This document shows positions 4,081 through 37,491 of a DNA stretch of 55,177 bases, in pieces. How positions within the stretch are numbered: the first letter of the stretch is position 1; each line of letters opens with the position of its first letter. Source of the stretch: a virus (Duplodnaviria > Heunggongvirae > Uroviricota > Caudoviricetes). Where the stretch lies: the IMG/VR virus record IMGVR_UViG_2541047719_000008. One strand, 5' to 3'. The position numbers and the translations under genes were made by a program. Below the pieces are notes generated by a model. The model was not told the origin of the DNA, searched no databases, and saw nothing but the letters and a program-made list of their open reading frames with translations.

Positions 4081-4710
4081 TTTGCTGCTCCTCATCATAT
4101 CGACCCTGCAAGGTCGGTTGGTTTCTCCACAAAACAGAGAAGAACACCTGCGGTGGCAGCCGCCCGGATGGATTGGGTTATGAGCCTGTCGTCCGGTGAT
4201 GCTCTTCTCTGTTTTGTAAAAAGAGCGGTACCAGCCGGAAGCAAGTGTACAAACTGGTACCGCCAAAGCAGTGGCTGTTGTGGTGGGGTTGTCACTCAGG
4301 CGTATGGTCAACCTGACAATCCGGTGTCCTCAACGGGGAAAGAGTAACCCCGCCATACTTACCGCCGCGCCATTTCGCGGATTACCACAACGCTGAGAGC
4401 ACTTAGCCAGTTACGGCACCACACTTTGTCGCGGCTCCATAAATGCCCTCATCGTTGCACCCTGGTCTCTTCCCAGGCGTCAAACCGGATCGCCACGCTG
4501 GTTAGGCGTCTTATCAGCATCATCATTGACTTGCACATTCCGGCTACCTGGTTTGTTTGCCCGAGCAAGAAGTGGATTGTCCCCTTTAACGTCCCCAGAC
4601 CGCTAACGACGCATGTGCCATACGCCGTGTTACAACCAAATTTTGTTTGAATCTTGCCTGCCTCATGTTTCTTTTGGATACATTATGTATCTCATGGGTA
4701 CATTGTCAAG

Positions 4711-8677: not shown

Positions 8678-9330
8678 TGAGTAATAAATATTGCCAGGAG
8701 CTGGTGGAGCTGCGGAACAAACCAGCCCATGAACTGAAGGAAGTGGGCGATCAGTGGCGCACGCCGGATAACATTTTCTGGGGAATTAACACCCTGTTTG
8801 GCCCGTTTGTCCTGGATCTGTTTACTGACGGTGATAACGCCAAATGTACCGCGTATTACACGGCGGAAGACAACGCGCTGGCGCATGACTGGTCAGAACG
8901 TCTTGCGGAGCTTAAAGGTGCTGCCTTTGGTAATCCCCCATACAGCCGCGCCAGTCAGCATGAGGGGCAATACATCACCGGCATGCGTTACATCATGAAA
9001 CATGCCAGTGCCATGCGTGATAAAGGCGGGCGCTATGTTTTCCTGATCAAAGCTGCCACCAGCGAAGTGTGGTGGCCGGAAGATGCAGATCATATTGCTT
9101 TTATTCGCGGGCGTATTGGTTTTGAACTGCCTGCCTGGTTTATCCCGAAAGATGAGAAGCAGGTGCCGACAGGCGCTTTCTTCGCTGGTGCTATTGCTGT
9201 TTTCGACAAGACCTGGAAGGGACCGGCAATCAGCTACATCGGGCGCGATGAACTTGAGGCATGTGGTGAGGCGTTTCTGGCGCAGGTTCGCCAGCAGGCG
9301 GAAAAACTGGTCAGGGAGATGGCGGCATGA
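8644..9330 (+). CDS. Phage DNA N6-adenine methyltransferase (Dam family)
   Basis: GNPPYSR catalytic motif (NPPY/DPPY class). Alternative start at 8677 overlaps the upstream stop (TAATG). Confidence 0.8.
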   Translation: MVSVRELRGGLMSNKYCQELVELRNKPAHELKEVGDQWRTPDNIFWGINTLFGPFVLDLFTDGDNAKCTAYYTAEDNALAHDWSERLAELKGAAFGNPPYSRASQHEGQYITGMRYIMKHASAMRDKGGRYVFLIKAATSEVWWPEDADHIAFIRGRIGFELPAWFIPKDEKQVPTGAFFAGAIAVFDKTWKGPAISYIGRDELEACGEAFLAQVRQQAEKLVREMAA

Positions 9331-9653
9331 CGACTTTAACTCAATGCCAGCAGCAGGTGCTGGATATGCTGATTTCTTATCAGAAAGAACGTGGCTTCCC
9401 GCCAACCAATCAGGAGGTGGCAACCATGCTGGGATACCGTTCAGTGAATGCAGCGGTGGAGCATCTTCGCGCACTGGAGAAAAAAGGCGTCATCACGATA
9501 AAGCGTGGTGTGGCCCGGGGGATCACGCTTCATACCGTGGTGAAGGACGACGACAGCGAGGCGGTCGGGATTATCCGCTCACTGCTTGCCGGTGAGGAAA
9601 ACGCCAGGCTGCGTGCAGCCCACTGGTTACATGAGAGGGGCCTGAAAGTATGA
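9327..9653 (+). CDS. LexA-type winged-helix DNA-binding protein (N-domain only)
   Basis: LTQCQQQVLDMLISYQKERGFPPTNQEVATMLGYRSVNAAVEHLRALEKKG matches the LexA DNA-binding domain; no peptidase domain present. Confidence 0.6.
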   Translation: MTTLTQCQQQVLDMLISYQKERGFPPTNQEVATMLGYRSVNAAVEHLRALEKKGVITIKRGVARGITLHTVVKDDDSEAVGIIRSLLAGEENARLRAAHWLHERGLKV

Positions 9654-25729: not shown

Positions 25730-25975
25730 ATGGGATTGTTTACGACCCGCCAGTTACTCGGTTATACCGAACAAAAAGTTAAATTTCGTGCGCTGTTTCT
25801 GGAGCTGTTTTTCCGCCGTACGGTGAATTTCCATACCGAAGAGGTGATGCTGGACAAAATTACCGGAAAAACGCCGGTGGCGGCCTATGTCTCCCCGGTT
25901 GTTGAAGGAAAAGTGCTGCGTCATCGTGGTGGTGAAACCCGCGTGTTGCGTCCGGGCTACGTCAAGCCGAAGCAC
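25730..25975 (+). pseudogene. E: Major capsid protein E, N-terminal fragment (interrupted by the inserted element)
   Basis: First ~82 codons match lambda gpE up to RPGYVKPKH, then the frame runs into unrelated sequence and stops at 26005. Confidence 0.85.
25965..25975. other. Left junction core repeat (attL-like) AGCCGAAGCAC
   Basis: 11-bp sequence at the point where E homology ends; an imperfect copy AGCCGAAACAC lies where E homology resumes (36698-36708). Confidence 0.55.
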
Positions 25976-26137
25976 TTAGCATGGCTTTCTGAGGCTTTCG
26001 TGTAGTTGCTGGTTTTTACACTTAATCTTTTGATAATAAAGAGTAAGTTTATCTGGCGCTTTCACTGGATTTTCCTCGTTATCTGTGTGTTGCAATCATC
26101 TCTGTATTGCAGCTTGTATTGCTTTTTGGGGCTAAAA

Positions 26138-27373
26138 ATGGCTGGCGAGAACAAACTGAGCGACAAAGCACTTAAAGGATATCTGGGGAAACCTAGAGAA
26201 AAGCAGATCACCATTGCTGATGGAAAGGGGCTTTCTATTCGTGTGAGTACCAAGGGGGCTGTGAGCTTTGTTTTCTTCTACAGGTTAGCAGGTGGCCGGG
26301 CTGCTCCGGTCTGGCTAACGTTGGGTAAATATCCTGATATGTCACTCAAACAGGCAAGGGAAAAGCGCGACGAGTGCCGTGGTTGGTTGGCTGACAAACG
26401 TGATCCGCGTATTCAGATTAAGATTCAGGCTGAAGAACGCTTAAAGCCGGTCACAGTGGAGGATGCACTAAATTACTGGTATGAAAATTACTGTAAGGTG
26501 CGTCGTAAAACTCATGCTGTAACGCTTGGCAGATTTCGAAAGCATATCTTTCCCTATATCGGTCATTTGCCCGTAAATGACACTCACCTATATGAATGGC
26601 TGGACTGTTTTGACCGAATTAAACGTAATGCACCAGTTATGGCGGCGTATGTTTTTTCTGACACTAAATTAGCTCTTCGTTTTTGTCGGGTACGCCAGTA
26701 CGCGACGTGTGATGCTTTAAAGGATTTGCGCATGAGTGATGTGGGGCAGATTGCAGGTAAGCGGGATCGGGTTCTGGATGAAGCCGAACTGGGCCAGCTC
26801 TGGAAGGCAATTTTTGTCGAGCCTGATTTAAAACTAATGTCTGAATACACGCGAAAAATGTTTGTGCTTTGTACAGTATTTGGATGTCGAATGAGTGAAG
26901 CCCGATTATCAGAATGGAGCGAATGGGATCTAGAAAGTTGGGTTTGGACTGTACCGAAAGATCACTCAAAAACTGGTGTTGAAATTGTCAGGCCAGTACC
27001 TGAAATTCTACGGCAGTGGGTAACGGATGTTCACGAAGAGACAAAACATACTGGTTATGTGCTGGGAAGTCTGCGAATTAGAGAAAGCGTAAGCAAGATT
27101 GGGGGGAAAATCGGTAAACGTTTGGGCCATGAAAAACAATGGTCACTACACGACCTTAGAAGAACGCTATCTACTCATCTAAGTGATCTCGGTGTTGAAT
27201 TTTATGTAGTAGAACAACTGTTAGGCCATGCGCTACCTGGCGTGGCAGGTGTTTACAACCGGAGTAAGTTTATGGCTAAAAAACTGGATGCTCTGGAACT
27301 CTGGACTACATATCTCAATAGCATCGCAGCTGCTGATTCAAAAGTGACAATCCTCAAACAAAAGGCTGGTTAG
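26138..27373 (+). CDS. int: Tyrosine integrase, P4-type
   Basis: N-terminal LSDKALKGYLGKP...GKGLSIRVS (P4-integrase N-domain) and C-terminal catalytic HDLRRT ... GH...Y motifs; start taken at MAGENK rather than the upstream ORF start at 26006. Confidence 0.85.
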   Translation: MAGENKLSDKALKGYLGKPREKQITIADGKGLSIRVSTKGAVSFVFFYRLAGGRAAPVWLTLGKYPDMSLKQAREKRDECRGWLADKRDPRIQIKIQAEERLKPVTVEDALNYWYENYCKVRRKTHAVTLGRFRKHIFPYIGHLPVNDTHLYEWLDCFDRIKRNAPVMAAYVFSDTKLALRFCRVRQYATCDALKDLRMSDVGQIAGKRDRVLDEAELGQLWKAIFVEPDLKLMSEYTRKMFVLCTVFGCRMSEARLSEWSEWDLESWVWTVPKDHSKTGVEIVRPVPEILRQWVTDVHEETKHTGYVLGSLRIRESVSKIGGKIGKRLGHEKQWSLHDLRRTLSTHLSDLGVEFYVVEQLLGHALPGVAGVYNRSKFMAKKLDALELWTTYLNSIAAADSKVTILKQKAG

Positions 27374-27374
27374 C

Positions 27375-27596
27375 ATGAAAAAAATGGCAATTGTTGATAA
27401 AAAGGGGCTGGAGTACATTCCTAACATTGACCGAATGATCCGTGAGAAAGAATGTCGGGAGCTAACCACTCTTGCGAACAGCACACGCTGGAAGCTTGAA
27501 AAGGAGGGGAAATTCCCCAAGCGAATCAAAATCGGATCTACGGCGGTGGCTTATAGACTCTCTGAGATTCAAGCTTGGATAAGAGGTGAATGGTAA
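27375..27596 (+). CDS. alpA: AlpA-family transcriptional regulator/excisionase
   Basis: 73 aa; REKECRELTTLANSTRWKLEKEGKFPKRIKIG...AYRLSEIQAWI matches the AlpA pattern; directly follows int. Confidence 0.75.
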   Translation: MKKMAIVDKKGLEYIPNIDRMIREKECRELTTLANSTRWKLEKEGKFPKRIKIGSTAVAYRLSEIQAWIRGEW

Positions 27597-27622
27597 GTTA
27601 GGGAGGTATTCCTCCCTATATC

Positions 27623-28306
27623 TTACAGGAAATTTTTTAAATCAGGGTTTTTTCCAAATGCGCTCTTATAATATACTGTTGCAATCTCGTTAAAAATAGT
27701 TTTTATATCATCGGTAACCACTATTGTTGCTACGCGCAAATCTTTTTGATATTCATTTAAATCTGGAGGGGTATAGTCCAATAGCGTTGATTTATCCAAG
27801 ATTAAATGTTCTAACATGGCATAGCGCTCAATCAATGTTTTATAAAAATGATATTGATTTTCACTGTTAGCATGTGCACAGTTTATTGCAAGTAAATACG
27901 TTATTTCATTATCTAGATGTGCACGGACAAGGCTTGTATAGGTTTTTTTACGATCTAGATCAAAGGGATGGTATCCAGCATTTTCATCAATGAACTTCAA
28001 TAGATGATATAATATTCTGAAGTAGCTTCCAAAAACAGCATCATGATTGTGCATCAGTGTATTAGTGTCTTTTAAAGAAACCAATCCATTCATCATTTTA
28101 TTAATTAACTCTGAGTAATTTGATTTTTTTCTAAGATCATTTAGAGCATTGTTATGTTGAGATAACATGAGAGAAAATGTTGATTCAAAAGATGATTGCT
28201 TTTTAGCAATTAATGCAACTAACACTGCTGTGCAAGTCCCGAGTGCCACGAAGAAATTTATAATGTTTGATGCAGTGAATACAGCATCGTCAGGAGTTGG
28301 AGTCAT
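27623..28306 (-). CDS. AT-rich cargo gene: hypothetical membrane-anchored protein, candidate abortive-infection/defence factor
   Basis: 227 aa on the opposite strand to int-alpA; one N-terminal hydrophobic helix; markedly AT-rich compared with its neighbours; no confident family assignment. Confidence 0.5.
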   Translation of the reverse strand: MTPTPDDAVFTASNIINFFVALGTCTAVLVALIAKKQSSFESTFSLMLSQHNNALNDLRKKSNYSELINKMMNGLVSLKDTNTLMHNHDAVFGSYFRILYHLLKFIDENAGYHPFDLDRKKTYTSLVRAHLDNEITYLLAINCAHANSENQYHFYKTLIERYAMLEHLILDKSTLLDYTPPDLNEYQKDLRVATIVVTDDIKTIFNEIATVYYKSAFGKNPDLKNFL

Positions 28307-28338
28307 TTGAATATCCTATTCAATAAAAATTAAAAAAA

Positions 28339-28533
28339 TTAGCCTTTAGGTTCTATACCTTTACGGCGAAGCTCAGCACGAACTAATTCTTTAATCCAAT
28401 TGGCCAAGCTCATTCCTTCCTGAGCTGCTGATTCAGCCATCTGTTCTTTGAGTTCAGGATTGATTCGGATCTGAAACGCAGGGGCTTTGCCGGCTCCTTT
28501 TGGCTGCTTATCTCTTTGAATTGTAGTTGACAT
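28339..28533 (-). CDS. Ribbon-helix-helix (CopG/Arc-type) DNA-binding protein
   Basis: 64 aa; APAFQIRINPELKEQMAESAAQEGMSLANWIKELVRAEL is a classic RHH beta-strand plus two helices. Confidence 0.65.
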   Translation of the reverse strand: MSTTIQRDKQPKGAGKAPAFQIRINPELKEQMAESAAQEGMSLANWIKELVRAELRRKGIEPKG

Positions 28534-28578
28534 GTGTGTACCTATTGCTTAGCATCAGTGTTGAATAGGTACACACAT
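28532..28578. promoter_or_regulatory. Perfect 15-bp inverted repeat (candidate operator) at the RHH gene start
   Basis: ATGTGTGTACCTATT ... 17 bp ... AATAGGTACACACAT, overlapping the RHH start codon, in the divergent intergenic region. Confidence 0.5.
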
Positions 28579-28669
28579 TAACATGATGTTATACCTATAA
28601 ACAACGCCCTAGGGTGCTCGCAACACACCTAGGGCGTCTAACCACAAACCGTTAACTGGAGTAACGACT

Positions 28670-29035
28670 ATGGCTGGAACACAGCATACCCAAACTCACC
28701 CTAAATTTATATACATCTTTCTGGCGCTACATCGCGATCGCATAGCAGATGGAGCAACTACGGTACATGTAGCCGCTGACACGCTGGTTGATGCGCGCAA
28801 GATGGTTAAGGAGATGGGCTATACTGCGGCTTTCTGGAAAGGGCGGGAAGAAAACACGCTGTTTATTCAGAAATGTGAAAACAATTTCATCTGGCGTTTT
28901 ATCGCCCTGAGTACGGCACAACCGCGCGTGATTACCATCGAGGCCACCAGCGAACAGGAAGCCCGCCAGCAATCCCCAACTGGCTGCGTGATGATATTCG
29001 CCGCCCGTATTCGTCAGGAGGTGTGCCATGAATGA
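28670..29035 (+). CDS. Hypothetical protein (first gene of the rightward operon of the element)
   Basis: 121-aa ORF; no motif recognised; true start may be internal. Confidence 0.4.
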   Translation: MAGTQHTQTHPKFIYIFLALHRDRIADGATTVHVAADTLVDARKMVKEMGYTAAFWKGREENTLFIQKCENNFIWRFIALSTAQPRVITIEATSEQEARQQSPTGCVMIFAARIRQEVCHE

Positions 29036-29252
29036 TCTTTATTTTAAAGTGCTGACACATGCTGAAAACGCGCTCGTTTGTGGCAAAAATATGCGAGAAA
29101 TCTTATCAACCTGGCTTGATGGGACAACAAATGCGGAACACGATGAACGGGATGCTAATTTAGCTGGAGCGTTAATTACGTTACTTGATCCTGTCATCAA
29201 AGAGCTGGATGAAGCTATAAAAATACACGACCAGAGCTATACCGGAGAATAA
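29028..29252 (+). CDS. Hypothetical protein
   Basis: 74-aa ORF overlapping the upstream stop. Confidence 0.4.
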   Translation: MNDLYFKVLTHAENALVCGKNMREILSTWLDGTTNAEHDERDANLAGALITLLDPVIKELDEAIKIHDQSYTGE

Positions 29253-29255
29253 AAA

Positions 29256-29543
29256 ATGAAAAATAAATTTTCTGGCTTTATTGCCAGCGGTCAAACTCAT
29301 TCAAAAATCAGCCTTGGGGATATTTTCAAAGATAGCTATGGCTATCGGGTAAAGATTATTTCGGTTGATGATCGTCGTGTCTCTTATTTGCGTGATGGTT
29401 ATGATTTTGAATGTGTTATGCCGCGTCAGCAGTTCGAAAGAGATTTCATTCTGGTAAAAAATTGCAAGACAGATAATCAGAGGCGTGCCGCAGGCTATAT
29501 CCGTAAAATTCGGGCAATGTTAGTTGCCGGAGGTAACAAATGA
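29256..29543 (+). CDS. Hypothetical protein
   Basis: 95-aa ORF immediately preceding and overlapping the primase start. Confidence 0.4.
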   Translation: MKNKFSGFIASGQTHSKISLGDIFKDSYGYRVKIISVDDRRVSYLRDGYDFECVMPRQQFERDFILVKNCKTDNQRRAAGYIRKIRAMLVAGGNK

Positions 29544-31360
29544 AACGTGCTCCGAACTTAAAATACCAACCGCGCGACAAAATGACGGAAGTCATCATTT
29601 TTGCTGGCAGTGATGCCTGGAGCCATGCAAAAGAATGGAATGAATGGGCAGGTAAGCATATTGCAGCAGATGATACACCACCAGTCATTCTGGGTACGGA
29701 ACAACTGGAAAACCTGGATGATATGCAAATTATCGATGAAGGCCGTCATTATGTGCGTGTTTATCGTGCCGGAAAGATTGCAGAGAAAAGTCTGACGAAG
29801 GTTGCGACATTACTTGCTATTGCAGGCGTAAAGGAAGCACGTTGTTACCGTAGCTTTGTTGATCGAGAGCCTGAAGACTGGACTCCGCGCCTTGTCGGCC
29901 TAAAAGCTGAAGCGGAGCATGGGGAAAGTCTGGTGATTGAACTGCCAGTGAAGAAGGCAGAGCGCAAAAATGACGAGCGTGCTTCATCTTTGGCGTTGAA
30001 TCAGATGGGGGCCAGCCAGCGCGGTGAAGTTCTCCTTGCACATTACGGCGGCGAACTGGCAATCAATGCCGACTCTGACACCGTTCATCATTACAACGGC
30101 GTTGTATGGGAGCCGGTTCAGGATAAAGAGTTACAGCGTGCTATGGCGCAGATTTTCATTGATGCGGAGATCAGCTATTCGCAGAACGCCATTAAATCGG
30201 CGGTAGATACCATGAAGTTAAGTTTGCCTGTAATGGGGAATACAGCCCGTAACCTGATTGGATTCAGTAACGGGGTATTTGATACCAGAACTGGTAATTT
30301 TCGGGAGCATAACAAAAACGACTGGTTGTTAATTGCCAGTGAATTACCTTTCAGCCCACCAGCAGAGGGGGAAACGCTGGCAACACATGCGCCGAATTTC
30401 TGGAAGTGGTTGCGCCGTTCGGTGGCTGAGAATGACCGCAAGGCAGATCGCGTACTGGCGGCATTATTCATGGTGCTGGCGAACCGGTACGACTGGCAGT
30501 TATTCATTGAGGTAACAGGGCCGGGGGGAAGTGGTAAAAGTGTGATGGCGGAGATTTGCACCATGCTGGCGGGTAAGGCGAATACAGTATCAGCAAGCAT
30601 GAAGGCGCTGGAAGATGCAAGGGAACGTGCGTTAGTGGTTGGCTTTTCGCTGATTATCATGCCGGATATGACCCGCTACGCTGGTGATGGGGCAGGGATT
30701 AAGGCCATTACAGGCGGTGACAAGGTGGCAATTGACCCGAAACACAAAGCCCCCTATTCAACGCGTATTCCGGCAGTAGTGCTGGCGGTTAACAATAACG
30801 CCATGTCATTCAGTGACCGCAGCGGGGGGATCTCACGTCGTCGGGTGATATTCAATTTTTCGGAAGTTGTACCGGAGAACGAACGCGATTCGATGCTGGC
30901 GGAAAAAATAGAAGGTGAGCTGGCGGTAGTGATTCGCCATCTGCTTACACGGTTTGCTGATCAGGACGAAGCCAGACGCCTGTTATATGAGCAGCAGAAA
31001 TCTGAAGAAGCACTGGCGATAAAGCGAGAGGGGGATTCGCTGGTGGACTTCTGCGGCTATCTCATGGCATCGGTAATGTGTGATGGCCTGTTAGTGGGTA
31101 ATGCTGAAATTGTGCCATTCAGCCCACGCAGGTATCTCTATCATGCCTATCTGGCTTATATGAGGGCACATGGGTTTGGTAAACCTGTAACACTGACGCG
31201 CTTCGGTAAAGATATGCCGGGGGCAATGGCGGAATATGGCAGGGAGTATATGAAACGGAAAACGAAGCACGGTTTGCGTTCAAACGTGACACTGACGGAG
31301 GAATCAGAAGACTGGATGCCATCATGTGTATCGGTCACTAATGACGATAGCAAAAATTAA
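29540..31360 (+). CDS. Primase/helicase replication initiator (P4-alpha / PICI Pri-Rep type)
   Basis: 606 aa with Walker A GPGGSGKS in the C-terminal half (D5/P4-primase-type NTPase); followed directly by an iteron array. Confidence 0.8.
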   Translation: MKRAPNLKYQPRDKMTEVIIFAGSDAWSHAKEWNEWAGKHIAADDTPPVILGTEQLENLDDMQIIDEGRHYVRVYRAGKIAEKSLTKVATLLAIAGVKEARCYRSFVDREPEDWTPRLVGLKAEAEHGESLVIELPVKKAERKNDERASSLALNQMGASQRGEVLLAHYGGELAINADSDTVHHYNGVVWEPVQDKELQRAMAQIFIDAEISYSQNAIKSAVDTMKLSLPVMGNTARNLIGFSNGVFDTRTGNFREHNKNDWLLIASELPFSPPAEGETLATHAPNFWKWLRRSVAENDRKADRVLAALFMVLANRYDWQLFIEVTGPGGSGKSVMAEICTMLAGKANTVSASMKALEDARERALVVGFSLIIMPDMTRYAGDGAGIKAITGGDKVAIDPKHKAPYSTRIPAVVLAVNNNAMSFSDRSGGISRRRVIFNFSEVVPENERDSMLAEKIEGELAVVIRHLLTRFADQDEARRLLYEQQKSEEALAIKREGDSLVDFCGYLMASVMCDGLLVGNAEIVPFSPRRYLYHAYLAYMRAHGFGKPVTLTRFGKDMPGAMAEYGREYMKRKTKHGLRSNVTLTEESEDWMPSCVSVTNDDSKN

Positions 31361-31373
31361 ACTTATGGAATAA

Positions 31374-31596
31374 CTGTTCACCACTGTTCACCCTGTCATA
31401 AATATCTTTTATATCAGTATATTATAGGGTGAACAGTTATTTATGAACTGTTCACCAAACTATTCACTGTTCACCTTTTTGATTGTTTATTGAGCTTCAA
31501 GGGTGAACAGTGGTGAACAGTTGGTGAATAGTTTTTGTGAAACTGTTCACCCATTAACATTATGAATTAAAAGAGAAAATATCAAAAGGTGAACAG
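31374..31596. repeat. Iteron array, candidate replication origin of the element
   Basis: At least nine copies of the 9-mer CTGTTCACC/GGTGAACAG in both orientations (e.g. 31374, 31384, 31428, 31448, 31467, 31502, 31512, 31543, 31588) in AT-rich non-coding DNA. Confidence 0.7.
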
Positions 31597-31647
31597 GTGA
31601 AGGGTTAAAACGCAAAAATTTTAATTTACTGCTGTGAGATAAAGCCT

Positions 31648-31893
31648 ATGACAGCGAAGCACACAAAAAAATCACAATCGCACGCCCTTGATTTGACGGA
31701 ACACTGGTTAAGGGTGTCGATAAAAATCATCGACCGCAACGCCGGGGAAGGATACGCGAAAGCACATCCCGAACTGATTAGCGCATTCATGACAACGGCG
31801 GCTGCAAACTTTGCCACTCTGACCGAACGGGAGATTGCTGAAGCGGAGGAAGTGGCAACAATCAATATTAAGTCCGGAGAGCAGGCAGCATGA
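31648..31893 (+). CDS. Hypothetical protein
   Basis: 81-aa ORF between the origin and ssb. Confidence 0.4.
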   Translation: MTAKHTKKSQSHALDLTEHWLRVSIKIIDRNAGEGYAKAHPELISAFMTTAAANFATLTEREIAEAEEVATINIKSGEQAA

Positions 31894-32339
31894 CGGCGCA
31901 AATATCAGTTTACGGGCGGTTGGTGGACGACCCGCAGACAAAACAGACCAGCAAGGGCACCCCCATGACGCTGGCGCGTATGGCGGTATCACTGCCCTGC
32001 AGTCAGTCGGATGACGGTCAGGCGACGATGTGGTTATCTGTCCTGGCGTTTGGCAGACAAGCCGACGCGCTGGCAAAGCATCACAAAGGCGAACTCCTGA
32101 GCGTGGCGGGTAATATGCAGGTGAGCCAGTGGACTGGACAGAACGGTGAAACGCGGCAGGGCTGGCAGGTTATCGCAGACAGCGTAATCAGTGCGCGAAC
32201 GGTGCGACCGGGCGGCAAAAAAGGTCAACAGGGTCAGGCTACTGACGCACTGAACAGAGCAAAACAACAGGCAGATCAGCAAGGAAGCCATCCACCAGTG
32301 GGAGATAATGAACAATGGGGAGATGATATTCCGTTTTAA
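31890..32339 (+). CDS. ssb: Single-stranded DNA-binding protein
   Basis: OB-fold-like N-terminus, Gly/Gln-rich linker and the canonical acidic tip DDIPF at the C-terminus. Confidence 0.75.
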   Translation: MTAQISVYGRLVDDPQTKQTSKGTPMTLARMAVSLPCSQSDDGQATMWLSVLAFGRQADALAKHHKGELLSVAGNMQVSQWTGQNGETRQGWQVIADSVISARTVRPGGKKGQQGQATDALNRAKQQADQQGSHPPVGDNEQWGDDIPF

Positions 32340-32550
32340 ATATTGCCAATAAAAAAGGCCGGAAAAAAATAAATTTTCCGGCATGCTACATAAATCCCGA
32401 CCAAAGGGAGTGAAGATATTAACACTAATTATCCGCGCTGAAGTTGTTATCCCAAAACTTTATACAACATTGCACTCGGTTGCATGTATTCGCATGACAA
32501 ATATCGGTGATAGCATATATCCACAATTATTTTTAATGAATGCAAAGAGG

Positions 32551-33597
32551 ATGCGTATGGTTGATTTATATTCGCCTACCCAGCTTGTACAGGTGGTTAA
32601 TGCTGTAGATGTACAAAAACAACTAAATGCGTTGTTTACCAGTTTGTTTTTTACTCGCTCGGTAATGTTTGAATCGCGCGATATTATTCTTGATACAATC
32701 GACGATCCAAATATCCCAATTGCAGCGTTTTGTTCTCCTATGGTGGGTAGTAAAGTTTCACGTGACGAAGGGTACGAATCAAAAACAATTCGTCCAGGCT
32801 ATATGAAGCCGAAAAGCAGCATTGATCCAAATAAGTTAGCTGTGCGCCCTGTTGGTGTATCACCTGAGCAATACAATGCTTTTGGAGCGCGTAATATTAA
32901 AGTTAAACAGGCGATTGTAAATCAGGCTAAAGCTATTCGTGCACGTATTGAATGGCTTGCCGTTCAGGCAATCACAACGGGGAAAAATATCATTGAGGGC
33001 GATGGTATTGAACGTTATGAGCTGGACTGGAATATTAAACCACAAAATATCATCACTCAGTCTGGCGGTGCTGAGTGGTCAGGTAAGGATAAAGAAACTT
33101 TTGATCCAAATGATGATATTGAGAGCTACGCAGAATTTAGTGAGGGCGTCACTAATATTATCATTATGGGCGGTAATGTATGGAAGAAATACCGTTCATT
33201 CAGAGCGATAAAAGAGGCTCTGGATACCCGTCGTGGTTCTAATTCCGAACTGGAAACGGCCCTTAAAGACCTTGGTGATTCGGTGAGTTTTAAAGGGTAT
33301 ATGGGCGATGTTGCGATTGTTGTTTACAGCGGGCGTTATACCGACGAGGACGGAACAGAAAAACATTTCCTTGATCCTGATTTGATGGTGCTTGGCAATA
33401 CGGCTCTTCAGGGGATTGTCGCCTATGGCGGTATTCAGGATCCGGAGCTAATCCGAATGGGGCTGACTAAAGCCGAACTTGCACCGAAAAACTATATTGT
33501 GCCTGGTGATCCGGCTATTGAATATGTGCAGACACATTCAGCACCACAGCCAATACCGGCCCGCATCAATCGTTTTGTTACCGTTCGCATTGGCTAA
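32551..33597 (+). CDS. Major capsid protein, lambda E-like paralog encoded by the inserted element
   Basis: Full-length homology to the split prophage E gene (RPGYMKPKS vs RPGYVKPKH; LDTRRGSNSELETALKDLG; YSGRYTDEDG; GDPAIEY). Start at MRMVDLY with AAAGAGG RBS; the tool ORF starts at 32383. Confidence 0.8.
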   Translation: MRMVDLYSPTQLVQVVNAVDVQKQLNALFTSLFFTRSVMFESRDIILDTIDDPNIPIAAFCSPMVGSKVSRDEGYESKTIRPGYMKPKSSIDPNKLAVRPVGVSPEQYNAFGARNIKVKQAIVNQAKAIRARIEWLAVQAITTGKNIIEGDGIERYELDWNIKPQNIITQSGGAEWSGKDKETFDPNDDIESYAEFSEGVTNIIIMGGNVWKKYRSFRAIKEALDTRRGSNSELETALKDLGDSVSFKGYMGDVAIVVYSGRYTDEDGTEKHFLDPDLMVLGNTALQGIVAYGGIQDPELIRMGLTKAELAPKNYIVPGDPAIEYVQTHSAPQPIPARINRFVTVRIG

Positions 33598-33606
33598 GGG
33601 GGAGCA

Positions 33607-33948
33607 ATGGCTACTCATTACACTGAACTCATGGCTGGCACTGAAGCACTGGTGACTACGCTGGGGATATTTTCAGCTAATAAAGGGGTAATTCCTGCAT
33701 TTACGCCACTGATGCAGGAAGATGCAACAGGTGCACTGGTAGTATGGGATGGTTCGAGCGTAGGTAAAGCGGTTTATGTTTCCGCTGTACAAATCGACAC
33801 CGCGAAAAAAACACAGGCTCAGGTCTATAAGACAGGTGTCTTAAATGTTGATGCTCTGAACTGGCCTGAGTCTGTTAAAGAACTGTCAGTAAAGGTTGCA
33901 GCGTTTGTTGGCTCAGGTATTTCTGTTCAGCCGCTGGCTCGTGTGTAA
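33607..33948 (+). CDS. Head decoration protein, lambda D-like paralog encoded by the inserted element
   Basis: 113 aa sharing TPLM, VVWDG, YK(T/S)G, NWPESV and AF(V/A)GS blocks with the prophage D protein. Confidence 0.75.
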   Translation: MATHYTELMAGTEALVTTLGIFSANKGVIPAFTPLMQEDATGALVVWDGSSVGKAVYVSAVQIDTAKKTQAQVYKTGVLNVDALNWPESVKELSVKVAAFVGSGISVQPLARV

Positions 33949-33959
33949 AGGGGGATACA

Positions 33960-34343
33960 ATGCAGAATGATTACAATGACCTTAAGCCAATTGCCGAAAT
34001 GATGTACCCGAATCAAGCTGTAGAGGAATTAAAAGCTATCGCTGACAAAATGTGTTTAAGCGAGCGCCTTGTTGATATGAATCAGGTGATGGAAATTACA
34101 ACCCTGAGTCGTCGTACACTGCTAAACCTTGAGGCTAGTGGAGAGTTCCCGGAGCGTGTGCAGGTTACGGAAGGGCGTAAGGCCTGGTATTTAAGTGAAG
34201 TGATCGACTGGATAAATAATATTCCTCGCGCTTCTGAATATTGCCGCGTACCTGTCCCAAAAAAGCCAGATGCGGCGCTATGCCTCAAGATTGAGCGTGT
34301 ACGCCGCAATGCACGGGATGGTCGCTATAAGCTGATTGGTTGA
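33960..34343 (+). CDS. AlpA-like HTH DNA-binding protein
   Basis: MEITTLSRRTLLNLEASGEFPERVQVTEGRKAWYLSEVIDWI matches the AlpA-type HTH; precedes the element's cos site. Confidence 0.5.
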   Translation: MQNDYNDLKPIAEMMYPNQAVEELKAIADKMCLSERLVDMNQVMEITTLSRRTLLNLEASGEFPERVQVTEGRKAWYLSEVIDWINNIPRASEYCRVPVPKKPDAALCLKIERVRRNARDGRYKLIG

Positions 34344-34369
34344 TGAAATTAGGGCCTGCTCTGGCTGGC

Positions 34370-34434
34370 GGGTCCTTTCCGGCGATCTGACAGGCTACGG
34401 GGCGTCAGGCGCGCGGGTTTTCGCTATTTATGAG
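34370..34434. other. Second, element-borne cos site with variant cosN (GGGCGTCAGGCG)
   Basis: GGGTCCTTTCCGGCGATCTGACAGGCTACG + GGGCGTCAGGCG + CGCGGGTTTTCGCTATTTATGAG aligns to the prophage cos at 19350-19416, with five substitutions in the 12-nt cohesive-end segment. Confidence 0.7.
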
Positions 34435-34535
34435 CATTTTAAGGGGACTGGTGGTGGTTTTGTTGTTCGCTATATCTGTATGAATAATAAGAGAAAAATA
34501 CAATCAATACACCAACCTGAAACAGTAATTAAGTT

Positions 34536-35087
34536 GTGGTATCAATGAAATTACACCTGATGAACAAAAAAAACATGGCAAAAAGTTGCCGTGTAAGCGC
34601 CACTGCGTTCGATAAGTGGGGAGTGATTCCCGTCGAGCGTAAGGGCCGTGAGGCGTTCTATGATGTTGCCAGTGTAATAGATAATCGGGTTAACAATGCA
34701 ATCAGCCAGATTACAAACGAAACGGGCGATATTGATGACGATGAACTTTTACGCGTCAGGATCAGATTACTGACAGCACAGGCAGAGGCGCAGGAGCTTA
34801 AAAACGAGCGCGAACGCGGCGACGTTATTGATACAGAGTTTTGTATGTATGTTCTTTCCAAACTGGCGAGTCAGATTTCATCTATCATGGACAGCCTGCC
34901 GCTTACCATGCAAAGGCGCTTCCCACAGATGACTCCGGCTATGCTGGATGGACTTAAAAAGGAAGTGGCTAAAGCCTGTAATGCCAGTGCCGGCGTTGCT
35001 GACAACCTCCCACAGATACTGGCTGATTATCTGATGGAAAGTACAGGAAACGTACCGGATAAGTTGCAGCTGAATAAGGATAAGTAA
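34536..35087 (+). CDS. Terminase small subunit, Nu1-like paralog encoded by the inserted element
   Basis: SATAFDKWGVIPVERKGREAFYDV ... YVLSKLASQISSIMDSLPLTMQRRFPQMTP parallels the prophage Nu1 (SVQAFDKWGVPPVERRGREVFYDV ... ALSKLAMALSSTLDSIPLSMQRQFPDLTP). Confidence 0.8.
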   Translation: MVSMKLHLMNKKNMAKSCRVSATAFDKWGVIPVERKGREAFYDVASVIDNRVNNAISQITNETGDIDDDELLRVRIRLLTAQAEAQELKNERERGDVIDTEFCMYVLSKLASQISSIMDSLPLTMQRRFPQMTPAMLDGLKKEVAKACNASAGVADNLPQILADYLMESTGNVPDKLQLNKDK

Positions 35088-35098
35088 CGTAGTACGCT

Positions 35099-35374
35099 AT
35101 GACTGAATCCGAACTACTGAAAGTAATCTGCCATGCTGGTGGAGTCAGCCACCAGCATGACGAACAGGCCACGCAGCCGGGCAGTGTCACCGCTGAAAAT
35201 TACGCTCGTGTGGTTGCTGAGGTTATGTGGCGTGACGGTATAGAACTGAACGGACAGGATTGCTTAGTCATCCGCACCAAAGTGCTGGCTATACTGGCAG
35301 CTAGGCGGAGGCAGGGACAACGCCAGAACGTTGCATCGTACCAGTGGAAGAAGCCTGACAGACTGCGGCGATAA
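35099..35374 (+). CDS. Hypothetical protein
   Basis: 91-aa ORF after the Nu1-like gene; no motif recognised. Confidence 0.35.
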   Translation: MTESELLKVICHAGGVSHQHDEQATQPGSVTAENYARVVAEVMWRDGIELNGQDCLVIRTKVLAILAARRRQGQRQNVASYQWKKPDRLRR

Positions 35375-35776
35375 CTCTTTGATTTTCTCGACGGCCCCAA
35401 AATGGGCCTTACCATAGCCAGCTAATAAATGAGCAAGCCTCAAAAGTGAGGTTTGTGGCCGTTTGGCCTATTCATATGCTAACTCGTTGATATTCCTGAC
35501 GACGCAAATTTACGCCTTGTGGCTGGTAGTCGAATTGCAAATTTGCAACTCGACTATGAAACTACAGGTAGTTTGGGTAGTAAAAGCAACACACTGATTT
35601 TGGGGCTTCTTCGCGATACCTAATATTATGGTATCGGTGGAAGAGATATCGTTTCTCATAGGTTAGCACCGAGGGCGGAGTTCCGCCCTCATCGAAAAAT
35701 TGCTTACGAGTCGTCAAAATAAATTAATCGACTGAGTATAATGATTAACTAATTGCTCGTGTTACTTCATTATACG

Positions 35777-36538
35777 TTATTTCCCATCTTTAAGGTTTAA
35801 CCAAGTGTTAATTAAAAAAAGAGCCATTGAGCCTGATAAATTTACTGCAAGTTCGGCATGCCTTGGGGATGGCTTAATTGATGAGCTGTTCGTTCCATGT
35901 GCATCACCGAGTTTATTACGAAGAGTACCTAACCCATTTACAACTGCAGAACAACCGCCGAGAATTTGTTTGAAGATATTTTCAGTATGTTGGTCGGCAG
36001 ATAGGTTAAGTTCTTTTGAAAGAGTTTTATAAAGCTCTGACATTTCAATATTTTTATTATTATACTGAATGCCCATATCATCAAGAATGTGTTTGCAAAC
36101 TGTTTCAAGAAGTGTTCTTGCGGAGGTTATCGCACCATCCGGATCTGTATGGCGCCGTTCAAGTGCTTTTATCCAAACGGCGTGGACTCCATCCTCGTTA
36201 AACTTTCTTAATACATCAGATATGTCTTCATCCGCTGGAGCTTTATTTTTCCCTTCTAGATAGTCCAGCATCGGCTGAAATGCCTTATAAATCAAATCTC
36301 TCCGGGGGGCATACTTTTCAGTCTTTTTTATAAATCCCCAAAATTCTTTTAGTGAGCGATTAGTTCTCACAAACTCTGGTAATAGCTGATGTAAAGGAGG
36401 ATTTTGTAAGAAATATGTTCTTAGAAGCAAATAATCATTATTAGCTTCATCCTGGGCTCCTGTAGCTCTTGCAATTAGTATGTTTTGAAGCGCTACTGCG
36501 CGCTCTAGGTCATTTTGAAGGGTATCTATAATATTCAT
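35777..36538 (-). CDS. AT-rich cargo gene: Abi_C-like (abortive infection C-terminal domain) protein
   Basis: 253 aa; C-terminal GTLRNKLGDAHG resembles the conserved R-N-x-x-G-x-A-H-G signature of Abi_C domains; opposite strand and AT-rich. Confidence 0.5.
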   Translation of the reverse strand: MNIIDTLQNDLERAVALQNILIARATGAQDEANNDYLLLRTYFLQNPPLHQLLPEFVRTNRSLKEFWGFIKKTEKYAPRRDLIYKAFQPMLDYLEGKNKAPADEDISDVLRKFNEDGVHAVWIKALERRHTDPDGAITSARTLLETVCKHILDDMGIQYNNKNIEMSELYKTLSKELNLSADQHTENIFKQILGGCSAVVNGLGTLRNKLGDAHGTNSSSIKPSPRHAELAVNLSGSMALFLINTWLNLKDGK

Positions 36539-36697
36539 AACAAATCTTTATTCACTTCATTTGTGGGTTGATAATTGAATGGTTTGTACATTGATTTCTG
36601 TGTATTGCAGTGTGTATTGCAACATAGCCATTCAGGTAGAGATTATGCTCTATTTTTCCTCTTATATCATTCACATACTTACACCATTGACTCATGT

Positions 36698-36708
36698 AGC
36701 CGAAACAC
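36698..36708. other. Right junction core repeat (attR-like) AGCCGAAACAC
   Basis: Imperfect copy of the left junction 11-mer, at the exact point where the E reading frame resumes. Confidence 0.55.
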
Positions 36709-37491
36709 GAATTTAATTACCAGCAGGCGGTTGAGCGCCTTCCTGGTGAAGATCCATCTCAACTGAACGATCCGGCTTACCGCCGTCTGCGTATCATTAC
36801 CGATAACCTCAAACAGGAAGAGCACGCGATTGTCCAGGTGGAAGAAATGCAGGCGGTAAATGCTGTGTTGTATGGCAAATACACCATGGAAGGAGACCAG
36901 TTCGAGAAAATTGAGGTCGATTTTGGCAGGTCGACGAAGAATAACATCACACAGGGTAGCGGTAAGGAATGGTCAAAACAGGATCGTGACACGTTCGATC
37001 CTACACATGATATTGACCTTTACTGCGACCAGGCCAGCGGTCTTGTGAATATTGCCATCATGGACGGTACCGTCTGGCGTCTGCTGAATGGTTTTAAGCT
37101 GTTTCGCGAAAAACTGGATACCCGTCGCGGTTCAAATTCACAACTCGAAACGGCAGTGAAAGATCTGGGCGCAGTGGTGTCCTTCAAGGGGTATTACGGC
37201 GATCTGGCTATTGTTGTGGCGAAAACGTCTTATATAGCAGAAGACGGTATCGAAAAACGTTATCTTCCAGATGGCATGCTGGTCCTGGGGAATACTGCTG
37301 CAGATGGGATCCGTTGTTACGGAGCCATTCAGGATGCGCAGGCGTTTTCCGAAGGTGTGGTGGCTTCTTCCCGTTATCCGAAACACTGGCTGACGGTGGG
37401 GGATCCTGCCCGTGAATTTACCATGACGCAGTCCGCACCGCTGATGGTGTTGCCGGACCCGGATGAGTTTGTGGTGGTACAGGTGAAATAA
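36700..37491 (+). pseudogene. E: Major capsid protein E, C-terminal fragment
   Basis: Frame opens after a TAG at 36697-36699 and reads PKHEFNYQQAVERLPGEDP ... DPAREFTMTQSAPLMVLPDPDEFVVVQVK, matching lambda gpE from about residue 80 to the end. Confidence 0.85.

What the first reader, a model, noticed from the sequence alone, without database searches (positions are those of the whole stretch)
29540..31600. Primase/helicase followed by a dense iteron array: autonomous replication origin of the element
A 606-aa protein with a Walker A motif (GPGGSGKS), typical of P4-alpha/PICI Pri-Rep initiators, is followed by at least nine copies of CTGTTCACC/GGTGAACAG in both orientations within ~220 bp of AT-rich DNA. 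Primase followed by iterons is the hallmark replicon of P4-like and PICI satellites and supports the element being an independently replicating satellite rather than a piece of the prophage.
Basis: partly seen in the sequence, partly recalled or inferred. Interest (0 to 1): 0.55.

Follow-up and report, generated by a model that had tools for sequence, protein, structure and literature searches.

The report
Known satellite replicon: helicase-initiator plus iteron origin
This is the replication module of an already described phage satellite embedded in a prophage capsid gene: a P4-alpha-type helicase/origin-binding protein followed by its array of binding sites. It is real but ordinary, apart from the protein lacking a recognisable primase.

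Summary
ORF 29540-31360 encodes 606 aa with Walker A GPGGSGKS. The 287-bp, 67% AT gap after it carries nine exact CTGTTCACC copies (5 on +, 4 on -) plus three degenerate ones, at 31374-31604.

The protein matches P4 alpha only from residue 149: D5_N, SF3 helicase and a C-terminal winged-helix origin-binding domain (PDB 1KA8, E 2e-24). TGTTCACC is the 'ori type 1 repeat' annotated in P4. In relatives the downstream repeat changes together with the wing of the C-terminal domain, so this protein very probably binds the array.

The module is already known. The protein is 605/606 identical, and the origin region 320/321 identical, to HE-PICI Eco567.11capE (Tommasini 2023), a satellite inserted in a lambdoid prophage capsid gene. 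EcCICFT073, whose pri-ori was shown to drive plasmid replication (Fillol-Salom 2018), has the same gene order and site layout.

One correction: alpha's Zn-ribbon and Toprim primase modules are absent. In their place is a ~130-aa domain with no profile hit and no conserved acidic residue, so 'primase' is unsupported and priming probably needs the host.

Verdict: interpretation supported, already known, low interest.

The parts
29540..31360 (+). pri/rep gene: 606-aa replication initiator (helicase plus origin-binding protein)
   Evidence: ORF. Pfam D5_N, DUF5906 and Pox_D5. 50.6% identity to P4 alpha over aa 149-596. 605/606 identical to the 11capE protein.
29540..29929 (+). N-terminal domain (aa 1-~130), alpha/beta fold of unknown function, sitting where P4 alpha has its Zn-ribbon and Toprim primase
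30026..30415 (+). D5_N domain (aa 163-292)
   Evidence: Pfam PF08706, E 1.4e-13.
30515..30841 (+). SF3 helicase P-loop core (aa 326-434). Walker A GPGGSGKS at 30518-30541. Candidate Walker B (LIIMPD) and arginine finger (SRRR) follow.
   Evidence: Pfam DUF5906 and PPV_E1_C. Match to SaPI primase-helicase 7OLA, E 2.6e-10. Paired arginines at this position in P4 alpha are noted in PMC2777425. The Walker B and Arg-finger assignments are my reading of the sequence.
31028..31321 (+). C-terminal winged-helix origin-binding domain (aa 497-594)
   Evidence: PDB 1KA8 (P4 alpha origin-binding domain), E 1.9e-24 over aa 498-594. Pfam Pox_D5. The wing segment changes together with the iteron type.
31374..31604 (.). 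Iteron array: 9 exact and 3 degenerate CTGTTCACC sites in four groups
   Evidence: The octamer equals the P4 'ori type 1 repeat'. Sites are conserved and spacers diverge across six genera.
31393..31427 (.). AT-rich spacer 1 (80% AT), candidate DNA-unwinding element
   Evidence: [quoted passage not shown]
31476..31501 (.). AT-rich spacer 2 (73% AT)
31552..31587 (.). AT-rich spacer 3 (83% AT), similar to the AT-rich core of the P4 crr repeat (TGAA(A)TTAAAAGAGAAAA)
29256..29543 (+). DUF4222 gene whose stop overlaps the pri start (ATGA). The same pairing occurs in EcCICFT073 and 11capE.
31648..31893 (+). Small conserved ORF (81 aa, phrog_1231) directly after the origin
   Evidence: A small ORF occupies the same position in EcCICFT073 and 11capE.
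31890..32339 (+). Satellite-encoded SSB ending in the tail DDIPF
   Evidence: Pfam SSB. Translation.
25965..25974 (+). attL identity block AGCCGAAGCA inside the prophage major capsid gene
   Evidence: It matches the att block listed for E_Phage_cap_E_80 HE-PICIs.
36697..36706 (+). attR block AGCCGAAACA, the right end of the satellite
   Evidence: The flank 'ttgactcatgt' matches the published attR context.

Best explanation
The region is the replication zone of a helper-embedded phage-inducible chromosomal island (HE-PICI of the capE site group, satellite about 25965-36706). Once the satellite's rightward operon is expressed, the 606-aa protein probably binds the TGTTCACC sites at 31374-31604 through its C-terminal winged-helix domain. 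Same-strand sites 10-11 bp apart, about one helical turn, and inverted pairs flanking 73-83% AT spacers would let several protomers gather. The D5_N/SF3 helicase part would then assemble as a self-loading ring on one of the AT-rich spacers and unwind it. The protein lacks P4 alpha's Zn-ribbon and Toprim primase, so primers most likely come from the host primase. The ~130-aa N-terminal domain and the satellite's own SSB (DDIPF tail) are candidate links to the host replisome. Shown here: gene and site anatomy, homology, iteron identity with P4, co-variation of wing and iteron, near-identity with 11capE. Taken from the literature: pri-ori of the homologous EcCICFT073 replicates a plasmid. Inferred: binding, melting site, helicase loading, source of primers.
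For: Domain hits D5_N, DUF5906 and Pox_D5. 1KA8 match, E 1.9e-24. 50.6% identity to P4 alpha over helicase and origin-binding domain. TGTTCACC is annotated as the P4 ori type 1 repeat in both ori and crr, and crr lies directly after alpha. In 30 or so relatives the repeat directly after the gene tracks the wing sequence of the C-terminal domain, not overall identity. TGTTCACC goes with KRKTKHGxRSNVTL in the window and related genera, and with KRHTKQGIQTNLTL in P4 at only 50% identity. TGTCTACC, TGTCCGCC, TGTCCACC, TGTGCACC and TCTCTACC go with different wings in proteins 73-80% identical elsewhere. Across six genera the sites are invariant in position and orientation while the spacers diverge. 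EcCICFT073 has the same order DUF4222-pri-ori-small ORF-SSB, a Pri 44% identical over its full length, and CTGTCTACC sites in the same layout. Its pri-ori supports plasmid maintenance, and deleting pri or ori abolishes or reduces it (PMC6092414). The replicon is 605/606 aa and 320/321 nt identical to 11capE, which its authors describe as having its own primase and origin.
Against: No experiment exists on this element's own replicon. In the published induction experiment the composite prophage plus satellite replicated before the satellite excised, so some satellite replication is passive. In P4 the block directly after alpha is the cis-required crr, not the initiation site, so by strict analogy initiation could lie elsewhere. 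The melting site among the three AT-rich spacers is not determined. The source of primers is unknown.
Confidence: 0.85

Rival explanations
1. The array is only a crr-like cis-acting enhancer, as in P4, and replication starts at a separate origin elsewhere in the satellite or inside the pri gene (P4 is said to have a second origin inside alpha; this is from my memory).
For: The position directly after the alpha homologue, and the internal organisation, resemble P4 crr. The two ~95-bp window units align with the 120-bp crr repeats, including the AT-rich core and the terminal GGTGAACAG-GTGAAC pair.
Against: No second cluster of TGTTCACC exists in the satellite. All nine octamer copies between the att sites lie at 31375-31595. 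In relatives no copies lie within 2.5 kb upstream. In EcCICFT073 pri plus the downstream region is enough for plasmid maintenance, and deleting that region reduces it.
Confidence: 0.08
2. The protein is a true primase-helicase, as the first reader and the database name say. The N-terminal domain would be a minimal Toprim primase, making the replicon independent of host DnaG as P4 is.
Confidence: 0.15
3. The repeats mainly regulate rather than initiate: they would act as an operator for the downstream SSB/late operon, as copy-number control by handcuffing, or as a packaging (TerS) site.
For: The array lies between pri and the next co-oriented genes. The satellite encodes a TerS. Iteron arrays in plasmids commonly serve both initiation and copy control (general knowledge).
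Against: No sigma-70-like promoter or intrinsic terminator is found in 31200-31950. The repeat changes together with the Pri wing, not with TerS. The same octamer is the alpha-binding origin repeat of P4. Copy control would add to origin function, not replace it.
Confidence: 0.05
4. The replicon is a decaying remnant, and the embedded satellite is copied only passively as part of the helper prophage.
For: The composite replicates before the satellite excises. Many database entries for the N-terminal part of this protein are partial or fused.
Against: The ORF is intact and 605/606 identical to 11capE. At least 80% of the 3.4-kb replication module is covered in 71 complete E. coli genomes. Sites are conserved across genera while spacers drift, and wing and iteron change together. 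Both patterns imply selection.
Confidence: 0.03

Closest known systems
HE-PICI Eco567.11capE of E. coli NRG857c (Tommasini, Mageeney & Williams 2023, PMC10111431)
   Same: Same element type and same replicon. Pri is 605/606 aa identical and the origin region 320/321 nt identical. It has the same insertion in, and co-orientation with, a lambda-E-type capsid gene, the same att context and the same zone order of integration, Bro, replication and late genes.
   Different: The accessory cargo differs: AbiC-like and Abi genes here, HEPN and DUF262 genes in NRG857c. The att core differs (AGCCGAAGCA here, AACCCAAGCA in NRG857c). The paper states that the satellite has a primase and an origin but never mentions iterons (0 occurrences).
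EcCICFT073 pri-ori replicon (Fillol-Salom et al. 2018, PMC6092414)
   Same: Same gene order: YlcI/YnfO, Icd-like, DUF4222, pri, ori, small ORF, SSB, capsid, decoration. Pri is 44% identical over its full length, N-domain included. The origin layout is the same: two direct sites just after the stop codon, an AT-rich spacer, then inverted and direct groups. Function was shown experimentally.
   Different: The iteron is CTGTCTACC/CTCTCTACC, not CTGTTCACC, and the wing of the C-terminal domain differs (RKVKGVTQTN against KRKTKHGLRSN). EcCICFT073 is integrated in the chromosome between ycfD and phoQ, not inside a prophage.
Satellite phage P4: alpha protein with ori and crr
   Same: D5_N, SF3 helicase and winged-helix origin-binding domain are 50.6% identical, with a match to 1KA8. 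The type 1 iteron TGTTCACC is identical. An iteron block sits directly after the gene, and its sequence resembles the crr repeats.
   Different: Alpha is 777 aa with a Zn-ribbon (30-66) and Toprim (210-299) primase, both absent here. P4 has two separated clusters, ori and crr, about 4.7 kb apart by the annotated coordinates, whereas this satellite has one. P4 has a terminator between alpha and crr, and none is detected here. The satellite lacks sid, psu and delta and instead carries lambda-type capsid, decoration and TerS genes.
SaPI Pri-Rep/ori of Gram-positive PICIs (self-loading helicases; PDB 7OLA)
   Same: An origin with iteron sets flanking an AT-rich region lies directly 3' of the initiator gene. 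The SF3-type core aligns with 7OLA at E 2.6e-10.
   Different: Similarity is distant and limited to aa 238-441. The DNA-binding domain and iterons differ. SaPI replication genes are transcribed from a divergent regulatory region.

Membership tests
P4 alpha-type initiators (primase, SF3 helicase, winged-helix origin binder) | D5_N plus SF3 helicase core with Walker A | tested here: met
   Pfam D5_N 1.4e-13 and DUF5906 1.3e-10. GPGGSGKS at aa 327-334. 50.6% identity to alpha.
P4 alpha-type initiators (primase, SF3 helicase, winged-helix origin binder) | C-terminal winged-helix origin-binding domain | tested here: met
   1KA8, E 1.9e-24, aa 498-594. Pox_D5.
P4 alpha-type initiators (primase, SF3 helicase, winged-helix origin binder) | Cognate type 1 iterons (TGTTCACC) in cis | tested here: met
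   Nine exact copies next to the gene. The octamer equals the P4 annotated type 1 repeat. Physical binding cannot be tested with these tools.
P4 alpha-type initiators (primase, SF3 helicase, winged-helix origin binder) | N-terminal Zn-ribbon plus Toprim (DnaG-type) primase domain | tested here: not met
   Present in alpha and in L011. Absent here at E<=10. hhalign E 0.17. No conserved acidic residues.
P4 alpha-type initiators (primase, SF3 helicase, winged-helix origin binder) | Bipartite cis elements: ori plus a distant crr | tested here: not met
   The satellite has a single cluster. P4 has clusters at 4314-4585 and 9310-9413.
Gram-negative PICI Pri-ori replicon | Origin directly 3' of pri, with iteron sets flanking AT-rich DNA | tested here: met
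   Definition in PMC6092414.
Gram-negative PICI Pri-ori replicon | Unidirectional int-alpA-...-pri-ori-late gene organisation, with homology to a reference PICI Pri | tested here: met
   44% identity to EcCICFT073 Pri over its full length.
Gram-negative PICI Pri-ori replicon | pri-ori segment drives autonomous replication | not testable with these tools
   Shown for EcCICFT073 only. It needs cloning of 29256-31650.
Helper-embedded PICI (HE-PICI), E_Phage_cap_E_80 site group | [quoted passage not shown] | tested here: met
   The capsid gene is split into an N-terminal fragment ending about 26005 and a C-terminal fragment after 36706. att blocks at 25965 and 36697. Published att contexts.
Helper-embedded PICI (HE-PICI), E_Phage_cap_E_80 site group | Replication zone homologous to the founder 11capE | tested here: met
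   605/606 aa and 320/321 nt identical.
DnaG/Toprim primases | Conserved catalytic glutamate and DxD, plus a zinc-binding domain | tested here: not met
   Family alignments show A-G where E-G would be expected and no DxD. No acidic column is conserved. No Zn-ribbon.
DnaG/Toprim primases | Toprim fold | tested here: inconclusive

The most novel reading that the evidence does not exclude
The so-called primases of this large Gram-negative PICI/HE-PICI group may not be primases. The ~130-aa N-terminal domain is a non-catalytic, exchangeable module. It replaces the Zn-ribbon/Toprim primase on two unrelated helicase chassis (P4-alpha-type SF3 and DUF927). It may couple a self-loading satellite helicase to the host primase or replisome. 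If so, these satellites depend on DnaG, unlike P4. Separately, the wing of the origin-binding domain may read the three variable central bases of the TGTnnnCC iteron.
Probability: 0.45. Interest if true: 0.4.

Novelty: already known. Interest (0 to 1): 0.2.

Why it matters
The result confirms that the 10.7-kb insert in the prophage capsid gene is a self-contained satellite with its own initiator and origin. That helps annotate the window correctly: the prophage is a helper-satellite composite. The replicon type was defined experimentally in 2018, and this particular allele was published in 2023, so there is no discovery here. Three modest additions are worth recording. First, the iteron equals the P4 type 1 repeat, which links PICI and P4 replicons directly. 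Second, a natural series of wing and iteron specificity classes could guide origin-specificity or incompatibility experiments. Third, the database name 'DNA primase family protein' is probably wrong for this protein group, which raises the testable question of how these satellites are primed.

Tried and rejected
- A literature search for the octamer TGTTCACC returned only unrelated primer sequences. The P4 GenBank annotation was used instead.
- The N-domain could not be tied to Toprim by sequence: hhalign of the whole A1 alignment matched only the D5_N columns, the trimmed profile against alpha-type N-termini gave E 0.17, and Pfam at E<=10 gave nothing.
- Foldseek against the PDB found nothing below E 0.15. 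The afdb50 library was unavailable.
- The promoter and terminator scan of 31200-31950 found nothing.
- There is no DnaA box inside the array, no tRNA in the window, and no Rfam family at gathering score in the satellite, so no C4/isrK-type immunity RNA was detected.
- I considered and rejected that the array is the satellite's pac/cos site or a TerS target, because the repeat changes together with the Pri wing.
- I considered and rejected filing the protein as a full P4 alpha orthologue, because the primase module and the bipartite ori/crr are not met.
- I did not use the second structure job on the full-length protein, because homology already settles the helicase and origin-binding domains.
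Full report
**Observation**

The ORF 29540-31360 (+) encodes 606 aa. The Walker A motif GPGGSGKS is at aa 327-334, nt 30518-30541.

The 287-bp gap before the next ORF (31648) holds nine exact copies of CTGTTCACC:
- + strand: 31374, 31384, 31448, 31467, 31543.
- - strand: 31428, 31502, 31512, 31588.
- Degenerate copies: 31460-31468, 31523-31531 and 31596-31604.

About 0.4 exact copies would be expected in the whole window. The octamer occurs 12 times against 1.76 expected, and none of 100 shuffles reaches that number.

Neighbouring same-strand copies are 10-11 bp apart. The sites fall into four groups separated by spacers of 35, 26 and 36 bp that are 80%, 73% and 83% AT. The whole gap is 67% AT, against 50% for the gene.

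**What the protein is**

Pfam gives D5_N (aa 163-292), DUF5906, which is the SF3 P-loop core (326-434), and Pox_D5 (497-592), all above the curated cut-offs. NCBIfam gives only TIGR01613 'primase_Cterm', below its cut-off.

Against solved structures the best match is 1KA8, the origin-binding domain of phage P4 alpha protein (E 1.9e-24, aa 498-594). Next is the SaPI primase-helicase 7OLA over the helicase core.

tblastn against phage genomes finds P4 alpha at 50.6% identity, but only from residue 149 onward. P4 alpha (777 aa) has a Zn-ribbon (30-66) and a Toprim domain (210-299) ahead of D5_N. A published description of alpha gives the same picture: a DnaG-type primase domain, an SF3 helicase and a C-terminal winged-helix domain (PMC2777425).

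**What the repeats are**

The GenBank record of P4 annotates 16 'ori type 1 repeats' in ori and in crr. Eleven of them are exactly TGTTCACC. The window's iteron is therefore the P4 type 1 iteron with one extra conserved base.

In P4 the block directly after alpha is crr (4291-4590, alpha ends at 4636). The window's array can be read as two ~95-bp units. These align with the two 120-bp crr repeats, including the AT-rich core TGAA(A)TTAAAAGAGAAAA and the terminal GGTGAACAG-GTGAAC pair. Unlike P4, the satellite has only this one cluster.

**Comparative evidence that the protein reads the array**

A scan of one genome per species returned 72 loci encoding relatives. Wherever the gene is complete, a repeat array lies directly after the stop codon. 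Its core sequence varies as follows:

| Iteron | Where found | Wing of the C-terminal domain |
|---|---|---|
| TGTTCACC | Window, Raoultella, Pluralibacter, Kluyvera, Citrobacter, Klebsiella | KRKTKHGxRSNVTL |
| TGTTCACC | P4 (only 50% identical overall) | KRHTKQGIQTNLTL |
| TGTCTACC | E. ruysiae, Kluyvera georgiana, Enterobacter hormaechei | different; 75-80% identical elsewhere |
| TGTCCGCC, TGTCCACC | Serratia | different; 73-74% identical elsewhere |
| TGTGCACC | Proteus | different |
| TCTCTACC | Symbiopectobacterium | different |

The iteron type follows a short segment of the C-terminal domain that I take to be the β-hairpin wing. It does not follow overall relatedness. In winged-helix domains the recognition helix and the wing are the DNA-contacting elements.

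An alignment of the TGTTCACC-class origins from seven loci in six genera shows all site positions and orientations conserved while the spacers diverge. Together these results make binding of the array by this protein the strongly preferred reading. Binding itself was not, and cannot be, tested here.

**What the element is, and what is already published**

The region lies in a 10.7-kb insert flanked by AGCCGAAGCA (25965) and AGCCGAAACA (36697). The insert sits inside a lambda-E-type major capsid gene of a lambdoid prophage. It encodes an integrase, an AlpA-like HTH protein, AbiC-like, YlcI/YnfO, Icd-like and DUF4222 proteins, the 606-aa protein, a small ORF, an SSB, its own capsid and decoration proteins, a TerS and an Abi protein.

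This is the helper-embedded PICI configuration described by Tommasini, Mageeney and Williams (PMC10111431). Compared with their founder element Eco567.11capE (CP001855 1199333-1210409), the protein is 605/606 identical and the origin region 320/321 identical. [quoted passage not shown] That rule, and the demonstration that EcCICFT073 pri-ori supports plasmid maintenance while deletions of pri or ori do not, come from Fillol-Salom et al. 2018 (PMC6092414). I fetched EcCICFT073. It has the same order DUF4222-pri-ori-small ORF-SSB, a Pri 44% identical over its full length, and CTGTCTACC/CTCTCTACC sites in the same layout.

At least 80% of the 3.4-kb module is covered in 71 of 5426 complete E. coli genomes, and partial matches occur in 1699.

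**The 'primase' label**

Residues 1-148 have no counterpart in alpha and no Pfam or NCBIfam hit, even at E<=10. The evidence on this domain is as follows:
- An AlphaFold model built from 28 homologues is confident up to about aa 120 and shows a four-stranded α/β domain.
- Foldseek finds nothing significant.
- A profile comparison with alpha-type N-termini gives E 0.17.
- A profile search of 1.84 billion representatives finds only 135 clusters. The domain is at the N-terminus of every full-length protein found, and the ten checked by Pfam fuse it either to the D5_N/SF3/Pox_D5 chassis or to DUF927 helicases.
- Across 26 diverse members no acidic residue is conserved. The position expected for the Toprim glutamate is A-G or x-G, and there is no DxD.

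An Enterobacter protein (L011) that is 80% identical in the helicase and origin-binding domain carries the P4-type Zn-ribbon and Toprim instead. Serratia relatives carry a third, unrelated N-module. All three join at the same ALNQMGASQRGEVLLA junction.

So the N-terminus is an exchangeable module. In this protein it is probably not catalytic. I put roughly 15% on its being an unconventional primase.

**Mechanism proposed**

After induction, the rightward satellite transcript yields the initiator. Its winged-helix domain occupies the 9-12 sites. The SF3 ring self-loads at an AT-rich spacer and unwinds it. Host primase and Pol III then take over, and the satellite SSB (DDIPF tail) coats the single strands.

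The anatomy, homology and co-variation are shown here. Origin function is taken from EcCICFT073. Loading, the melting site and priming are inferred. While the satellite is still embedded, it is also copied passively with the helper.

**Negative checks**

Nothing in the array contradicts the proposal:
- No sigma-70 promoter or intrinsic terminator consensus is found in or around it.
- It contains no DnaA box.
- No Rfam family is detected in the satellite.

**Verdict**

The finding is real and its interpretation is essentially right. It is already known: the exact replicon was published with 11capE, and the replicon type was characterised in EcCICFT073 and P4. The points added here are small. 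They are the identity with the P4 type 1 iteron, the crr-like organisation of a single composite origin, the wing-iteron specificity classes, and the likely absence of primase activity. Interest is low (0.2).

Noticed in passing
window 25730-26005 and 36707-37491, with the satellite at 25965-36706: The satellite interrupts the lambdoid prophage's major capsid (E-type) gene, is co-oriented with it, and carries its own capsid (32383/32557-33597) and decoration (33607-33948) genes. This is the published HE-PICI configuration, not a new one.
   Followed up: yes
window 29540-29929; loci L011, L012-L015; proteins P0073-P0200: The N-terminal ~130-aa domain of the initiator is an exchangeable module. 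It is found on two unrelated helicase chassis (D5_N/SF3 and DUF927). Its place is taken by a Zn-ribbon/Toprim primase in L011 and by a third unrelated module in Serratia. No acidic residue is conserved across the family.
   Followed up: partly
window 27623-28306 (-) and 35777-36538 (-); L076 9537-11253: Near-identical copies of the satellite carry different defence-type cargo at the same two positions: AbiC-like and Abi here, HEPN plus DUF262 in NRG857c, TIR or DUF2971 in other strains.
   Followed up: no
window 31890-32339: The satellite's own SSB ends in the tail DDIPF, the motif I recall as the canonical host-protein-binding tail of E. coli SSB, so it could engage host replisome partners.
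   Followed up: no
whole window: DnaA-box-like 9-mers (TTATCCACA, up to 1 mismatch) number 29 against 13 expected, and no shuffle reaches 29. None lies in the iteron array.
   Followed up: no
phage record LR881103.1 (Escherichia phage vB_KppS-Ant, 16.5 kb): A record deposited as an induced prophage encodes a 74%-identical full-length initiator. It is probably a PICI-type satellite filed as a phage.
   Followed up: no
window 29256-29543: A DUF4222 gene overlaps the initiator start (ATGA). The pairing is conserved in EcCICFT073 and 11capE. P4 has ORF106 (DUF5375), which I recall as the copy-number gene cnr, at the same position. A regulator role is conceivable but untested.
   Followed up: no
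window 32383-33597: The mechanical ORF for the satellite capsid protein is 404 aa, but RefSeq annotates a 346-aa product starting about 174 nt downstream.
   Followed up: no
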